Positions 17,166 through 21,577 of a stretch of 64,000 nt of DNA are shown one piece after another. The notes beneath the pieces are model-generated. The model searched no databases and was not told where the DNA came from. It saw nothing but the letters and a program-made list of their open reading frames with translations. Position 1 is the stretch's first letter. Each line of letters begins with the position of its first letter. The DNA comes from Chthonomonas calidirosea (GTDB lineage Bacteria > Armatimonadota > Fimbriimonadia > Fimbriimonadales > Fimbriimonadaceae), in assembly GCA_945859975.1 (NCBI GenBank), contig CAMAPH010000002.1, forward strand, positions 91,768-155,767, written 5' to 3'. The position numbers and the translations under genes were made by a program.

Positions 17166-18314
17166 TTGGCAGGAGTAGCGTTCAAAAGCGTAACAAAGGT
17201 GTACGGTAAGGACGTCAAGGCGGTCAGCGACCTCAACCTCGACATCCAAGATCAAGAGTTCATGGTCCTCGTCGGGCCTTCAGGCTGCGGAAAAACCACC
17301 GCCCTGAGAATGATCGCCGGCTTGGAAGAAGCGACCGGTGGAGACATCATGATCGGCGACGTTCGCGTCAACGACGTTCCGCCAAAGGATCGAGACATAG
17401 CGATGGTTTTCCAAAACTACGCGCTCTATCCGCACATGAACGTGTACGACAACATCGCGTTCGGTCTTCGGCTTCGAGAACTCAAGAGCTTCTTCTGGCA
17501 AATCACCCATTTGGCCGAAGCCAAGACGATCAAGGAAGACATCGACAAGCGGGTCAAAGAAGTTGCCCGTATGCTGGACATCGAGAAGTACCTCCATCGA
17601 AAGCCGAAGGAACTCTCAGGCGGTCAACGACAGCGTGTCGCTCTTGCGCGAGCCATCGTCCGAAAGCCGAAAGTCTTCTTGATGGACGAGCCGCTATCGA
17701 ACCTGGACGCAAAGCTCCGCGTTCAAACTCGAGCCGAGCTCATTCGACTTCACCGCCAGCTCGGAATCACGACCGTATATGTCACCCACGACCAGGTCGA
17801 GGCCATGACGATGGGCCAGCGAATGGCCATCATGCGCGACGGCATCCTCCAGCAGTGCGATCAGCCTGAAAAGGTCTATCAGTACCCGGCAAACAAGTTC
17901 GTTGCGGGCTTTATCGGCTCTCCTCCGATGAACTTCATCGATGCTGAGATTCGCATGGAGAACGGTGTCGCGATTGTTGACGCCGGGGAGTTCAAGCTTC
18001 CGGTGCCAGATGGCAATCCTGCAGCTCACATGAGCGGCAAAAAGATCACCCTCGGCATTCGCGCTGAAGACATTCACGACGCTGCCATTCCAAGCAACGT
18101 GGTTGCGACCGATGCGAATAGCGTCCAGGCAACCGTTGACGTAATGGAACCACTCGGCCACGAGTACGTTGCTTATCTGAAGATCGGCAAGATCAACCTA
18201 GTTGCTGCCATCAGCAACGAGAGTAAGGTCCGCGTCACCGAAGTCGCCAAGTTCGTGGTCAACCTTGACCGCGTACACCTCTTCGATGCCGAGACCGAAC
18301 AGGCAATCCGCTAA
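17166..18314 (+). CDS. Sugar ABC transporter ATP-binding protein (MalK/MsmX/UgpC family)
   Basis: GPSGCGKTT, LSGGQRQRVALARA, MDEPLSNLDAKLR, TOBE-like C-terminus. AGGAG RBS. Confidence 0.95.
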   Translation: MAGVAFKSVTKVYGKDVKAVSDLNLDIQDQEFMVLVGPSGCGKTTALRMIAGLEEATGGDIMIGDVRVNDVPPKDRDIAMVFQNYALYPHMNVYDNIAFGLRLRELKSFFWQITHLAEAKTIKEDIDKRVKEVARMLDIEKYLHRKPKELSGGQRQRVALARAIVRKPKVFLMDEPLSNLDAKLRVQTRAELIRLHRQLGITTVYVTHDQVEAMTMGQRMAIMRDGILQQCDQPEKVYQYPANKFVAGFIGSPPMNFIDAEIRMENGVAIVDAGEFKLPVPDGNPAAHMSGKKITLGIRAEDIHDAAIPSNVVATDANSVQATVDVMEPLGHEYVAYLKIGKINLVAAISNESKVRVTEVAKFVVNLDRVHLFDAETEQAIR

Positions 18315-18328
18315 GAAACCTGAATCCT

Positions 18329-18367
18329 AAAAGCGCGAGGTGAACCTAGGTTCCCTCGCGCTTTTTT
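18329..18367. terminator. Bidirectional intrinsic terminator
   Basis: AAAAGCGCGAGG...CCTCGCGCTTTTTT between convergent units. Confidence 0.85.
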
Positions 18368-18380
18368 GCGTCTTCTGTTT

Positions 18381-18576
18381 CCCCTAAGGGCGACGACGGG
18401 ACTGACCGCGGGAAGAGTCTTGATGTTTAAGGTTTGAGGATTGAAGTCACGAACTTTGAGTTTTGAGGCCATAGGCCGCTTGATCAGGTTCAATGATTCT
18501 TGTCAAGAATCAGCCAGGATTCGATGTTGATCGAAGGTGCTAAGTCAGTCGTATTCCGTCAATCGCCCTTAGAGGC
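18381..18576 (-). ncRNA. Candidate novel structured ncRNA downstream of the DIP1984-like gene
   Basis: Closing stem 18381-18406 / 18544-18575 (10+5+7 perfect bp plus two G-U pairs that form only on the minus strand), internal hairpins, a heptamer repeat array, and TAGAAT 7 nt upstream of the stem. Confidence 0.6.
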
Positions 18577-18596: not shown

Positions 18597-19046
18597 TCAC
18601 TCGGAAAACTCAATGGAAACGGTGGCGTTGTGCTCGTCCAGACGATCCTGAAGTTCGTCGATCTCCGCTTCAAGCCGCGATACTTCTTCTTCGACTTCGC
18701 GGGCGGAAAGGGTCGCGATGTACTCCTGCGGTTCCTGCATTCCGTACGGTTGCATGAACTTTCCCGACGTGGTCGGAATCCTCCGCAAGAAGCTGATGTG
18801 ACTCTTCAGTTCCCCGATGCGATAGATCGTCTCCTGAATCGGAGCATTGGCGAGGCTAATTGCCGCTTTCAATTTCACGAGCGCCTCAGTTGCATTTCGG
18901 AGTTCAGCGAGACTTGCCGCCACATCAAACTCTTCCCTGCCGCCAACGAGGCGCGAATTGTGAGCGGTCACGATGCCCTGAAGCTTTTGAATCTTCGCCA
19001 CTTGGCGATTCTTGAGCTTCAGGGCTTTCGCGAGCGAGATTGCCAT
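18597..19046 (-). CDS. DIP1984/DUF6847-like alpha-helical coiled-coil protein (149 aa)
   Basis: MAISLAKALKLKNR...KAAISLAN...YRIGELKS...EIDELQDRLDEHNAT. ATG overlaps the upstream TAA (TAATG). Confidence 0.75.
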   Translation of the reverse strand: MAISLAKALKLKNRQVAKIQKLQGIVTAHNSRLVGGREEFDVAASLAELRNATEALVKLKAAISLANAPIQETIYRIGELKSHISFLRRIPTTSGKFMQPYGMQEPQEYIATLSAREVEEEVSRLEAEIDELQDRLDEHNATVSIEFSE

Positions 19047-21577
19047 TACTGGACGGTAACCCAGACCGATGTGCTCGCCGAACCGAACTGAACGGTTCCG
19101 CGGGTGAACTTCCAGCAGGACTGATAGAGGCCAACGGTGTTCGGCGCCGTGAGTCGAGCCTGAACCGTGATCGTTTGGCCAGGTGCAACGTTGCTTCCGG
19201 GCGGCATTCCGAGGCGGCTCTTGCCGAATGTGGTCGACCCCACGGGCATTGAGGTCAGCGCAAGGCGCTGCACATCCGCCGAGGTCCAGTTCTGCGTACC
19301 GGCGTTTCGGAACGTGAACGCGACCGTGAAGACTTGCCCCGGTGCGACCGTGTTCGGAACCTGCTGGGAAACAAACGCGGCATCCCATTCGGTGTTGACC
19401 GACATTGGGACCGAAATCGTCGTGGTCGTTCCGTTACCGTTGGTAACCGTTAGCGTTGCGTAGAGTTTTGCGCTAGGCGTGATAGCGGCATGATTCAGCA
19501 CGACTTCATTGCTGGTCGGAGCAATTTCGGTGTTCGCGACAACATCGCCTGCGCCAGCCGTTCGACCAATCTTGATCTGGTACTTCTCGATTCCCGTCTC
19601 GGTGTCGTATGCCCAGAGCTTGAATCGAGTCGCCGAGTAGGCGCCACCCGTCGGGACGCCTTCCCAGTTGGAAAAAGCAAATCGATCCACGATCGGCGCG
19701 GTGTCATCACCGGTGTAAGTTCCGCACCAGAAGTCCGTCGCCGGTGCATCGCTGCCCGAAATGACTTCGACGCGCCGGACCTTAGTCTTCCCAAAGGCCA
19801 CCGCGGTTACGGTGTACATGCCCGGTGCCAGCTGGTCGTATCGGTACGTACCGTTAGCAAGCGTCGAGGTTTGGTAGGTGATCGTGCCACCGTCCTTCTT
19901 AGCGCGAACCGTAGCGTTGCCTTGTGCAGTGCCTTCGTTGTAGACGATTCCTTCGATTGCCCCGGCGGTAGCTCCTCGGGAGTCCGCATCCTGCAACAGA
20001 TAGTAAGCATCAAGCGAGCCGTAACCCTGGTGGGTCTCCCAAGAGCCTTTCGGTGCGCCGTACACGCTCAGTGCCGACCGCTGCAAGGCTCGATAGGCCC
20101 GAAGGTTCTGCATGCCCTGAGCTCGATCCATATCGTTCTTGCCGTAGTACAAGCTTGCCGCGCCCGCGACGATCGGGCTCGCCATCGATGTTCCAATCAA
20201 GTAGCCGTAGCCAAGGTCATATCCTGGCGCCCCGACGTCCATGATCGGGTTATGGGTGGTCATCGTGGTGGAGTAGATGTACGCCAGCATCGCGATCGGG
20301 TCTTCGATGTTGCTGTAATCGAGGATGATGTTTCCTCCTGGTGCAGCGAGGTCGATGTACGAACCGGTTCCCGCGTAGTAGTCCGAGGCATGGATGTAGC
20401 CGTAGCCGTTCGCGGTGACCGCGAAAGCGCCACTGCAAGCCGCAGGATAAATCGGCCCTAAGTCACCGCCACCGGCGCCGTCCTCGTTACAAGCCACCAC
20501 GACGAGGACTCCCTTCTGCCAGGCGTAGGTCACCGCGTCCTGGAAGAGCTGCGAGAAGTTTTCCGTGCCAAGGCTAAGGTTGATGATGTCCACGCCATGA
20601 TCGGTCGCGTAGAAAATCGCGCCCGCCGCATCGGCGTCTGAGCCGTTTCCGGTGTCATCGAAAACGCGGAGATTGATTCCCTTGCTTGGATAGCCGAGCC
20701 CGACGATTCCCTTTCCGTTCCAGTTTCCGTTGTTCCCAGAAGCAAGGGCAAGTCCGGTGACGTGAGTGCCGTGCCCCATCGCATCTTCGGTGGATCCTTC
20801 TTGCAGAACTTCGCCAAAGCTGAACTGGGCGTCCAGGCTCAAATCGAACTGCCCGCCTTCTTCGATGCTGCTGTCAAATCCCCCGGCGTTGATGAAGTCC
20901 GGGTGTTGTCGCTCAACTCCGGTGTCGATGACCGCGATCATCGGCACGTTCTGTGGTTTGTCGGCGCTCGTAAACCATCGATTGGGCCAATCGTTCCAAG
21001 CATCGAAAGCGCTGGTCTCGTCGAGATACCAGAGCCGGCGATACGTGACGCCCTCTCCGAGCGGAATCATTGGCTCTCCGATTTCAATAACGTTCCAGTC
21101 CCCGTCATTGGGCTCTGGCAAGAGCGGATAAATTTTGTTGAGCGGCTGTGCCGCCACGACGTTTGGTTTGCCCTTCAGGCTTGCCGCGACCGCCTTGGGA
21201 TCCTCGCCCTTTCCGAGTTGCCATACCGTCCAGCCGGACCGCTGAATCCGGTTTCGAAAATTCTCGGAGCGCAATCCGGTAGGCACAAAACGAGCGCGCG
21301 TCGCTTCGGTTTTCGTTAGCTCTGCCGCAACCTTGGTCGGAAACTTGACCAAAACGTAGCCAGGAACGATCTCGTTCTTGCGCTTCGCGGGAATGTTTCG
21401 CTTCAAGATGCTTCGCAAAACCAATCCCAGTGGTTTCGGTGCAAAAATAGAAACGGCCGGATTACCGATGACTCGGCTTCTCCGTCCTAGCGATTCGCTC
21501 ACGGGACCAACGGTCTGGGCGGGAGCAACGGCAACCAGAAATAGGCTTGCAGCCAAACTCAAAACTCTAAAATTCAT
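19046..21577 (-). CDS. Secreted S8 peptidase with carboxypeptidase-regulatory-like, Ig/FN3-like and NBR1-Ig-like domains
   Basis: AVIDTG / HGTHVTG / GTSMASP triad, then GAIEGIV...LAPGMYTVTA and a C-terminal FRNAGTQNW...VAPGQT. Confidence 0.88.
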   Translation of the reverse strand: MNFRVLSLAASLFLVAVAPAQTVGPVSESLGRRSRVIGNPAVSIFAPKPLGLVLRSILKRNIPAKRKNEIVPGYVLVKFPTKVAAELTKTEATRARFVPTGLRSENFRNRIQRSGWTVWQLGKGEDPKAVAASLKGKPNVVAAQPLNKIYPLLPEPNDGDWNVIEIGEPMIPLGEGVTYRRLWYLDETSAFDAWNDWPNRWFTSADKPQNVPMIAVIDTGVERQHPDFINAGGFDSSIEEGGQFDLSLDAQFSFGEVLQEGSTEDAMGHGTHVTGLALASGNNGNWNGKGIVGLGYPSKGINLRVFDDTGNGSDADAAGAIFYATDHGVDIINLSLGTENFSQLFQDAVTYAWQKGVLVVVACNEDGAGGGDLGPIYPAACSGAFAVTANGYGYIHASDYYAGTGSYIDLAAPGGNIILDYSNIEDPIAMLAYIYSTTMTTHNPIMDVGAPGYDLGYGYLIGTSMASPIVAGAASLYYGKNDMDRAQGMQNLRAYRALQRSALSVYGAPKGSWETHQGYGSLDAYYLLQDADSRGATAGAIEGIVYNEGTAQGNATVRAKKDGGTITYQTSTLANGTYRYDQLAPGMYTVTAVAFGKTKVRRVEVISGSDAPATDFWCGTYTGDDTAPIVDRFAFSNWEGVPTGGAYSATRFKLWAYDTETGIEKYQIKIGRTAGAGDVVANTEIAPTSNEVVLNHAAITPSAKLYATLTVTNGNGTTTTISVPMSVNTEWDAAFVSQQVPNTVAPGQVFTVAFTFRNAGTQNWTSADVQRLALTSMPVGSTTFGKSRLGMPPGSNVAPGQTITVQARLTAPNTVGLYQSCWKFTRGTVQFGSASTSVWVTVQ

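What the first reader, a model, noticed from the sequence alone, without database searches (positions are those of the whole stretch)
18417..18466. Seven-unit, 7-nt-periodic TCAAANY array in the unpaired loop of the candidate ncRNA
Seen on the minus strand: TCAAAAC TCAAAGT TCGTGACT TCAATCC TCAAACC TTAAACA TCAAGAC. This is seven consecutive units, six of them exactly 7 nt, in an A/C-rich, G-poor and therefore likely single-stranded stretch. Established: ring-shaped RNA binders such as TRAP read tandem short repeats, one per subunit. Inference: these are multivalent binding sites for an oligomer of the adjacent protein, or a repeat template. Degenerate units with a conserved period suggest selection rather than recent slippage.
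Basis: partly seen in the sequence, partly recalled or inferred. Interest (0 to 1): 0.75.

Follow-up and report, generated by a model that had tools for sequence, protein, structure and literature searches.

The report
Conserved seven-base rail in new RNA
The seven evenly spaced 7-base units are a real, deeply conserved part of an uncatalogued folded RNA that follows one small gene of unknown function in several bacterial phyla and in giant phages, and they most likely line up several copies of a protein on the RNA.

Summary
The minus strand at 18466-18417 reads exactly as described: seven units, six of 7 nt and one of 8 nt, with only 8% G. On its own this is only suggestive. It is the best lag-7 stretch in the 64 kb, but Tandem Repeats Finder does not call it.

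Conservation is decisive. A phased array with unit consensus K-C-A-A-R-N-Y sits at the same place in about 80 non-redundant homologous loci: Fimbriimonas, Planctomycetota, many metagenomic lineages of 24-70% GC, and two phages of 462 and 595 kb. It always lies inside a roughly 200-nt RNA that starts just after a DIP1984/DUF6847-like gene. The RNA is closed by a long helix with abundant compensatory changes.

The layout is fixed: three units (the third 1-2 nt longer), four strictly phased units, then a UCUU/UCAU tail that runs into the closing helix.

There is no Rfam match and I found no literature. Binding by the adjacent protein is plausible but untested. A TRAP-like ring and a repeat template have no support. 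In some lineages the module sits inside tRNA gene arrays, next to RtcB or RlaP.

This scan has already met the same gene-RNA module in at least seven other genomes.

The parts
18597..19046 (-). 149-aa DIP1984/DUF6847-like gene, the constant partner of the RNA. Its ATG overlaps the stop of the upstream S8 peptidase gene (TAATG).
   Evidence: NF038048 E 4e-8 and PF20935 E 0.006, both below their curated cut-offs. Relatives carry PF20935. AlphaFold model pLDDT 94. The only real fold match is 3KDQ, TM 0.71. Start context.
18381..18575 (-). Core of the structured RNA (about 195 nt) that holds the array.
   Evidence: Fold z-score -5.7. A covariance model built from Planctomycete members matches 18382-18575(-) full length, though weakly (15.7 bits, E 0.06-0.12). 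No Rfam family matches.
18544..18575 (-). 5' strand of the closing helix P1 (segments of 13 + 5 + 7 bp).
   Evidence: Coordinates. In the family, 96% of P1 cells are paired and 12 of 13 pairs show compensatory changes, against 28-39% paired in slid controls.
18381..18406 (-). 3' strand of the closing helix P1.
18495..18535 (-). Two hairpins of the 5' domain: P2 at 18535-18520 and P3 at 18511-18495. P3 has a 7-nt loop, UUGACAA.
   Evidence: Comparable 7-nt loops (CUGAUAA, CUNCAAA) recur in other lineages.
18467..18477 (-). Small hairpin P4 (GGCC-UAU-GGCC) directly 5' of the array.
   Evidence: A short hairpin precedes the array in the other Fimbriimonas loci as well.
18445..18466 (-). Array block 1: units 1-3. 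The third unit is the 8-nt odd one (UCGUGACU) and carries the family's +1 phase shift.
18417..18444 (-). Array block 2: units 4-7, strictly 7 nt apart.
   Evidence: In the family the last four units are 7 nt apart in 66-70 of 70 loci.
18410..18416 (-). Tail heptad UCUUCCC linking the array to the P1 3' strand.
   Evidence: Family tail consensus is U (100%), C (82%), U/A, U (80%). Coordinates.
18329..18367 (-). G+C-rich hairpin with A-run and U-run. Likely a two-way terminator shared with the convergent ABC ATPase gene (17166-18314, +).
   Evidence: The simple terminator scan did not list it.

Best explanation
The array is the single-stranded 'heptad rail' of a new family of roughly 200-nt RNAs transcribed together with a DIP1984/DUF6847-like gene. 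Shown: the RNA starts within a few bases of the stop codon. Its two ends form a long helix. Inside, two to four hairpins are followed by 7-9 heptads of consensus K-C-A-A-R-N-Y. These are laid out as three units (the third lengthened by 1-2 nt, by a small hairpin, or in one lineage by an extra unit), four strictly phased units, and a UCUU/UCAU tail that enters the closing helix. Inferred: each heptad offers one CAA-centred docking site. The rail therefore binds several copies of one protein side by side, most likely the co-encoded helical-bundle protein. That protein's most conserved motif is the basic N-terminal AKALKxKNR helix. Seven bases of extended RNA span about the width of such a bundle. 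The result would be a particle of defined size, about 7-9 protomers in two blocks. Because the module sits inside tRNA gene arrays next to RtcB or RlaP in some lineages, the particle probably acts in handling damaged RNA or tRNA.
For: The array is real, and in the own genome it is the only match to the array model. The same array sits at the same place in homologous loci from several phyla and two huge phages. Lag 7 wins in 41.9 of 78 loci against 4.6 in shuffles. Spacing is 7 nt in 350 of 421 steps. The phase shift falls at a fixed place and the modal count is 7-8 units. A3 is at least 90% conserved in most units across 24-70% GC. The consensus fold leaves the array unpaired. It shows no excess complementarity to the 5' domain (-22.1 against -21.5 kcal/mol for shuffles). 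The CAA core has the lowest pairing probability, 0.35. The RNA always follows the gene on the same strand, and no other gene recurs across all groups. The family is large: 2087 clusters. Helix 1 of the protein carries +5.4 net charge and holds the most conserved motif. A precedent for protein sites at a 7-nt period exists: HutP reads XAG plus a 4-nt spacer in two blocks of three (PMC2425495).
Against: The basic helix 1 is matched by an equally acidic helix 3 (-4.9), so the conserved lysines may make salt bridges inside the protein rather than contact RNA. Pairing probabilities only mildly favour an open array (0.53 against 0.67). Congeners that lack the protein carry long TCAAGGC-type heptamer repeats, so such heptads can exist without this protein. 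The oligomeric state of the DIP1984 fold is unknown (3KDQ has four chains in the crystal).
Confidence: 0.45

Rival explanations
1. Tether model, like a Y RNA. The DIP1984-like protein binds another part of the RNA (for example the closing helix or the 7-nt hairpin loops). The rail recruits a different multi-subunit cellular RNA-binding machine, such as an exoribonuclease, chaperone, helicase or repair enzyme.
For: The architecture resembles Y RNAs: the ends are paired and a single-stranded effector module lies inside (PMC4201824). RtcB follows the RNA in one lineage, RlaP is a neighbour in another, and tRNA arrays flank the module in group C. TCAAGGC-type heptads occur in congeners without the protein, which could fit a host factor that reads them.
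Against: No second conserved partner gene recurs across lineages. The own genome has no Ro60/TROVE, and its RtcB is unlinked. No known bacterial factor is known to me to read KCAAR at a 7-nt period.
Confidence: 0.2
2. RNA-only architecture. The phased CAA cores make periodic tertiary contacts (U-turns or A-minor docking into the long closing helix), or they join RNA molecules into a multimer. The period would then reflect RNA geometry, not protein sites.
For: The fixed layout, and conserved adenines at fixed phase. A 25-35-bp helix lies beside the array. Unit starts of U or G followed by C-A fit U-turn or GNRA-like turns (my inference from the sequence).
Against: Unit number does not scale with P1 length (rho 0.00, n = 64). 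I know of no tertiary motif with a 7-nt period. The RNA never occurs without the protein gene in the loci examined.
Confidence: 0.12
3. Mimic or bait. The heptads imitate 7-nt tRNA loops (read as Y-U-C-A-A-R-N, they resemble a T-loop or an anticodon loop). They would act as decoy, sensor or sponge for a tRNA-directed nuclease or enzyme, or pair with a target RNA.
For: The unit length equals tRNA loop length. The module is embedded in tRNA arrays with RtcB in group C. Some members have T-arm-like or tRNA-like elements before the array. KCAAR also appears inside 7-nt hairpin loops.
Against: The position that would be the invariant U33 or U55 is G in up to half of the units. The units have no flanking stems. 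ARAGORN and Rfam call no tRNA within the RNA. No complementary target was identified.
Confidence: 0.1
4. Neutral heptanucleotide microsatellite (like cyanobacterial STRR repeats) that has decayed in place.
For: Some Fimbriimonas genomes are full of heptamer tandem repeats, including TCAAGGC, CAATCCT and CAAGACT. Period 7 is the commonest tandem period there: 22 of 47 arrays in 143 kb.
Against: The own genome has only one other, weak period-7 array. The finding's units are all different from one another. Unit count and the place of the phase shift are conserved across phyla and in phages. The position inside a covarying RNA is constant.
Confidence: 0.03
5. Repeat template for a polymerase, or DNA-level iterons (TTGA on the plus strand) bound by a DNA-binding protein.
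For: Repetition alone.
Against: No reverse transcriptase or replication gene recurs nearby. A 7-bp period does not fit the DNA helical repeat. Strand-specific G-U pairs and compensatory changes place the element in RNA of the gene's strand. The units are degenerate.
Confidence: 0.02

Closest known systems
HutP binding sites in the Bacillus subtilis hut terminator RNA (PMC2425495)
   Same: Short single-stranded motifs at a 7-nt period (XAG plus a 4-nt spacer), arranged in two blocks and read by a homo-oligomer.
   Different: HutP sites are 3 + 3 with a 12-17-nt linker and lie in a 5' leader that controls termination. Here there are 3 + 4 units (plus a tail) with a 1-2-nt shift, the core is CAA, the array lies inside a closed 3' RNA, and the protein has an unrelated fold.
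TRAP binding sites in the trp leader (11 G/UAG triplets round an 11-subunit ring; from my own knowledge)
   Same: One short repeat per protein subunit in unstructured RNA.
   Different: The TRAP period is 5-6 nt and the core is GAG/UAG. The protein here is not a beta-sheet ring, there is no attenuator context, and no ring is indicated.
Bacterial Y RNAs with Ro60/Rsr (YrlA, RF02553; PMC4201824, PMC7790460)
   Same: A small RNA with paired ends and an internal effector module, always next to its protein gene, sometimes in RtcB RNA-repair operons and in phages. Some members have tRNA-like elements.
   Different: There is no Rfam match and no TROVE protein in the genome. The partner protein is a small helical bundle, and Y RNAs have no heptad array.
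Csr/Rsm sponge RNAs (CsrB, RsmZ; from my own knowledge)
   Same: Many copies of a short protein-binding motif on one RNA.
   Different: The motif there is GGA in hairpin loops at irregular spacing. The own array has no GGA and a strict phase.
Cyanobacterial STRR heptanucleotide repeats (from my own knowledge), and the heptamer repeats of other Fimbriimonas genomes
   Same: A 7-nt unit, in part with the same sequence (TCAAGGC, CAATCCT).
   Different: Those are long, near-perfect, copy-number-variable tandem repeats at many sites. The finding is a degenerate array of fixed count inside a conserved RNA.

Membership tests
Uncatalogued RNA that trails DIP1984/DUF6847-like genes | Lies directly downstream of a DIP1984-like gene, on the same strand. 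| tested here: met
   Gene at 18597-19046(-), RNA at 18381-18575(-). The same order holds in all homologous loci with enough downstream sequence.
Uncatalogued RNA that trails DIP1984/DUF6847-like genes | Long closing helix formed by the 5' and 3' ends, with compensatory changes. | tested here: met
   The own RNA has 25 bp in three segments. In the family, 96% of cells are paired and 12 of 13 pairs show changes on both sides, against 28-39% paired in slid controls (the alignment was fitted to the model).
Uncatalogued RNA that trails DIP1984/DUF6847-like genes | Phased heptad array just 5' of the closing helix's 3' strand. | tested here: met
Uncatalogued RNA that trails DIP1984/DUF6847-like genes | Matched by a covariance model built from other members. 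| tested here: inconclusive
   Model R1, built from Planctomycete members, hits 18382-18575(-) full length but with only 15.7 bits (E 0.06-0.12). A broader model could not be calibrated.
DIP1984 family / Pfam DUF6847 (the protein) | Score above the curated cut-offs of NF038048 or PF20935. | tested here: not met
   33.5 bits against a cut-off of 70, and 16.9 bits against 27. This is a divergent branch whose relatives do carry PF20935.
DIP1984 family / Pfam DUF6847 (the protein) | Same fold as the solved member 3KDQ. | tested here: met
   Foldseek E 2.4e-4, TM 0.71, and the only significant PDB match. Model pLDDT is 94.
TRAP-type repeat RNA | 9-11 G/UAG triplets with 2-3-nt spacers, and a TRAP (MtrB) protein. 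| tested here: not met
   The sequence shows a CAA core at a 7-nt period. Pfam gives no TRAP domain in the neighbouring proteins.
HutP-type repeat RNA | XAG triplets 7 nt apart in a terminator leader, and a HutP protein. | tested here: not met
   Only the period agrees. The motif, position and protein all differ.
Y RNA (Ro60 partner) | Rfam Y RNA model match, and a TROVE protein in the genome. | tested here: not met
   No Rfam match even at E 10. PF05731 was not found in the 95.8% complete genome.
Csr/Rsm sponge RNA | Multiple GGA motifs, mostly in hairpin loops. | tested here: not met
   There is no GGA in the 50-nt array, and no Rfam CsrB/Rsm match.
STRR-like heptanucleotide tandem repeat | Near-identical head-to-tail heptamers with variable copy number. 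| tested here: not met
   Tandem Repeats Finder at score 30 finds nothing at 18417-18466. All seven units differ. Unit count and phase shift are conserved across phyla.

The most novel reading that the evidence does not exclude
The heptad rail is the counting track of a so far unknown ribonucleoprotein particle. A fixed number (about 7-9) of DIP1984-like protomers would assemble on it in two blocks. This particle, widespread in bacteria and giant phages, would work in the response to tRNA or RNA damage, as a functional counterpart of Ro-Y RNA built from unrelated parts. The heptads might double as tRNA-loop-like bait.
Probability: 0.2. Interest if true: 0.85.

Novelty: new variant of a known kind. 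Interest (0 to 1): 0.7.

Why it matters
DIP1984/DUF6847 is a large protein family: 2087 clusters at 50% identity match this branch's profile. It has a solved structure but no known function, and it is found on chromosomes, in giant phages and (per the literature) on Acinetobacter plasmids. If it always travels with a folded RNA carrying a strictly phased, fixed-count rail of binding-site-like units, the family becomes experimentally tractable. The rail predicts a stoichiometry, a binding motif (CAA core, 7-nt spacing, one phase shift) and simple mutants. The links to tRNA arrays, RtcB and RlaP point to RNA-damage biology, where only the Ro-Y RNA particle is known so far. It would also add a widespread family to the catalogue of bacterial and phage non-coding RNAs.

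Tried and rejected
- Rfam at gathering and permissive thresholds found nothing relevant.
- PADLOC and PHROGs gave only coiled-coil noise.
- PDB search by sequence gave only coiled-coil noise. 3KDQ appears only at E 4.5 by sequence.
- Literature searches for DIP1984, DUF6847, septicolysin and 3KDQ found only annotation mentions on Acinetobacter plasmids and no functional work.
- Tandem Repeats Finder does not see the array.
- A global MAFFT alignment of all the RNAs failed, as they are too divergent. Per-group and model-based alignments were used instead.
- The idea that the rail runs along the closing helix predicts that unit number scales with helix length. It does not.
- The idea that the rail pairs with the 5' domain predicts excess complementarity. 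There is none.
- The sequence-only array model (R2) cannot tell the RNA's array from perfect heptamer microsatellites, so it could not settle whether orphan RNAs exist in genomes without the protein.
- tblastn against plasmids found no close relative of this branch.

Full report
**1. The observation**

Composition is A20 C14 U12 G4.

Self-match at lag 7 is 23 of 43 positions. The stretch contains the best lag-7 50-nt window of the whole window (24; mean 10.6, sd 2.9). That alone would not be compelling. Lags 6 and 9 reach 27 and 24 elsewhere in coding DNA, and Tandem Repeats Finder does not report the array even at score 30.

**2. Setting**

Directly upstream on the same strand lies a 149-aa gene (18597-19046). 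It matches NCBIfam DIP1984_fam (E 4e-8) and Pfam DUF6847 (E 0.006), both below their curated cut-offs. Its relatives carry PF20935.

The AlphaFold model is confident (pLDDT 94). It shows long helices plus short strands. The only real PDB match is 3KDQ, an uncharacterised Corynebacterium diphtheriae protein (TM 0.71).

The gene's ATG overlaps the stop of an S8 peptidase gene (TAATG). The organism is a Fimbriimonadaceae bacterium (Armatimonadota), judged from a 97% identical locus with a named record.

The 21 nt after the stop codon are followed by a long helix. Positions 18575-18544 pair with 18406-18381 in segments of 13 + 5 + 7 bp. The helix encloses three hairpins, the array and a UCUUCCC tail. 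A G+C-rich hairpin at 18367-18329 then ends the unit.

No Rfam family matches, even at E 10.

**3. Conservation**

- Eight of 36 sampled congeners encode the protein (33-97% identity). Each shows, right after the gene, a short hairpin, a run of heptads and a CUCUU-like tail.
- The same holds in 21 loci from named genomes: Fimbriimonas, Gemmata, Fimbriiglobus, other Planctomycetota, and one bin labelled Bifidobacterium.
- It also holds in 80 metagenomic loci of 24-70% GC, and in two uncultured phages of 462 and 595 kb.
- Seven more members were drawn from a profile search that found 2087 protein clusters. All seven show the same pattern.

Lag 7 is the winning lag in 41.9 of 78 non-redundant downstream regions, against 4.6 in dinucleotide shuffles. 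These sequences are related to one another, so this is not a formal probability.

A covariance model from Planctomycete members finds the RNA after the gene in 38 loci of other groups. One of them is the own window at 18382-18575(-), although weakly (15.7 bits, E about 0.06-0.12).

On that alignment the closing helix is 96% paired. Twelve of 13 pairs show changes on both sides, against 28-39% pairing when the partner is slid. The alignment was fitted to the model, which favours the structure.

**4. Anatomy of the array**

In 70 parsed loci the unit consensus is K-C-A-A-R-N-Y. A3 is at least 90% conserved in most units. 350 of 421 steps are exactly 7 nt. The modal count is 7-8 units. The tail is U-C-(U/A)-U.

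The last four units are 7 nt apart in 66-70 of 70 loci. The unit before them is typically 8-9 nt.

An independent MAFFT alignment of 40 arrays gives the same picture: U1, U2, U3 (plus 1-3 nt, or an extra unit in one group), U4-U7, then the tail. Invariant adenines are spaced 7, 15, 7, 7, 7.

The own array, with its 8-nt third unit, is a typical member. Across the family alignment, adenine frequency autocorrelates 0.70 at lag 7 and 0.51 at lag 14.

**5. Is the array unpaired?**

The consensus fold leaves it open. It shows no more complementarity to the 5' domain than to shuffled 5' domains (-22.1 against -21.5 kcal/mol).

Its pairing probability is lower than that of the rest of the RNA in 42 of 44 RNAs (0.53 against 0.67). 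The CAA core is lowest, at 0.35.

This is consistent with a single strand, but it is thermodynamic prediction only.

**6. Context**

No second gene recurs across all groups. In one large group, however, RtcB follows the RNA.

In that group the module is also embedded in same-strand tRNA gene arrays. tRNA-Ile(GAU) lies just upstream of the gene and tRNA-Phe(GAA) lies right after the RNA. One 3.4-kb locus holds twelve tRNAs.

Another member has RlaP as a neighbour. Some members carry a T-arm-like or tRNA-like element before the array, though ARAGORN and Rfam call no tRNA inside the RNA.

The own locus has no tRNA nearby. Its RtcB lies on another contig. The genome has no Ro60/TROVE.

**7. A complication: heptamer repeats elsewhere in the genus**

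A sequence-only model of the array finds only the locus itself in the own genome. In congeners that have the protein, it finds the expected site.

In congeners that lack the protein it hits long, near-perfect heptamer repeats, such as (TCAAGGC)x20-22 and (CAATCCT)x60. Those genomes carry heptamer repeats of many sequences: 22 of 47 tandem arrays in 143 kb have period 7. The model therefore selects the CAA-containing subset.

This shows that heptamer slippage is a habit of the genus. It does not explain a degenerate, fixed-count, phase-shifted array conserved across phyla and in phages.

**8. Mechanism**

Shown: a conserved, phased, probably single-stranded array inside a covarying RNA that is tied to one protein gene.

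Inferred: each heptad is one docking site, and the co-encoded protein is the most economical reader. Its most conserved motif is the basic N-terminal helix (AKALKxKNR; +5.4 net charge over helix 1). Seven bases of extended RNA roughly span the width of a helical bundle. The 3 + 4 layout suggests two blocks of protomers.

I put 0.45 on this reading. The rivals are:

- a Y-RNA-like tether that recruits another oligomeric factor (0.2);
- an RNA-only periodic fold (0.12);
- a tRNA-loop mimic or bait (0.1);
- a decayed microsatellite (0.03);
- a template or DNA iterons (0.02).

A ring like TRAP is not indicated.

**9. Comparison and novelty**

The nearest mechanistic precedent is HutP, which reads XAG plus a 4-nt spacer in two blocks of three (PMC2425495). 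The nearest organisational precedent is Ro60-Y RNA in RtcB operons (PMC4201824, PMC7790460). The finding is a member of neither.

I found no literature on the function of DIP1984/DUF6847 or on this RNA.

Earlier notes of this scan describe the same gene-RNA module in at least seven other genomes, including a 'heptad rail' and a GUU-unit variant. I used them as leads only. I tested the links to RNA repair and to phages on my own loci.

**10. Limits**

There is no family-wide calibrated model. There is no structural model of the complex, and no test of whether the RNA occurs without the gene.

Noticed in passing
L127 872-1292; L133 15498-15654; L134 13236-13377; L129 9489-9716; L128 14142-14396: Several Fimbriimonas genomes that lack the DIP1984-like gene carry long, near-perfect heptanucleotide tandem repeats (CAATCCT x60, TCAAGGC x20-22, CAAGGCT x33), plus other heptamers (TTGGGGA, GGTGTTC, GTGCTCT and others). 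Period 7 is the commonest tandem period there, which recalls cyanobacterial STRR repeats.
   Followed up: partly
own genome G000:C8:58474-58509 (outside the window): The only other period-7 array of the own genome is CTCAAAG-type, about 5 units with a 14-nt super-period. It is intergenic, upstream of a nucleotidyltransferase-like gene.
   Followed up: partly
L088 561-3227; also L079, L103, L107, L073, L055, L093: In one lineage the gene plus RNA sits inside a same-strand tRNA gene array. tRNA-Ile(GAU) lies just before the gene and tRNA-Phe(GAA) lies within about 15 nt after the RNA. L088 holds 12 tRNAs in 3.4 kb. In L022, RtcB follows.
   Followed up: partly
L053 about 582-690; L143 about 1100-1270; L069 and L105 5' domains: Some members carry a T-arm-like hairpin (GGTTCGAnTCC), and in L053 and L143 an acceptor-like helix, ahead of the array. 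This is a tRNA-like element that neither ARAGORN nor Rfam calls.
   Followed up: partly
window 18495-18511 (-); L021, L056, L073, L110, L111, L059, L063: A 5-bp hairpin with a 7-nt loop CUGAUAA recurs in Planctomycete and tRNA-array lineages (UUGACAA in the own RNA). A second hairpin with loop CUNCAAA presents the same CAA-A motif as the rail units.
   Followed up: partly
window 19044-19050 (-): The stop codon of the 847-aa S8 peptidase gene overlaps the ATG of the DIP1984-like gene (TAATG). This suggests co-transcription and translational coupling in this genome only. Neighbours differ in the other loci.
   Followed up: no
L113 1193-1279: In the 595-kb phage, a 28-codon lysine- and proline-rich small ORF lies between the DIP1984-like gene and the RNA.
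   Followed up: no
L030 and L021 (same metagenome-assembled genome): One Planctomycete bin holds two copies of the module on different contigs. In L021 the RNA lacks the usual 3' strand of the closing helix.
   Followed up: no
L139 1-189 (-): RlaP (PF10127), a nucleotidyltransferase family, lies next to a member that carries an N-terminal extension (210 aa).
   Followed up: no
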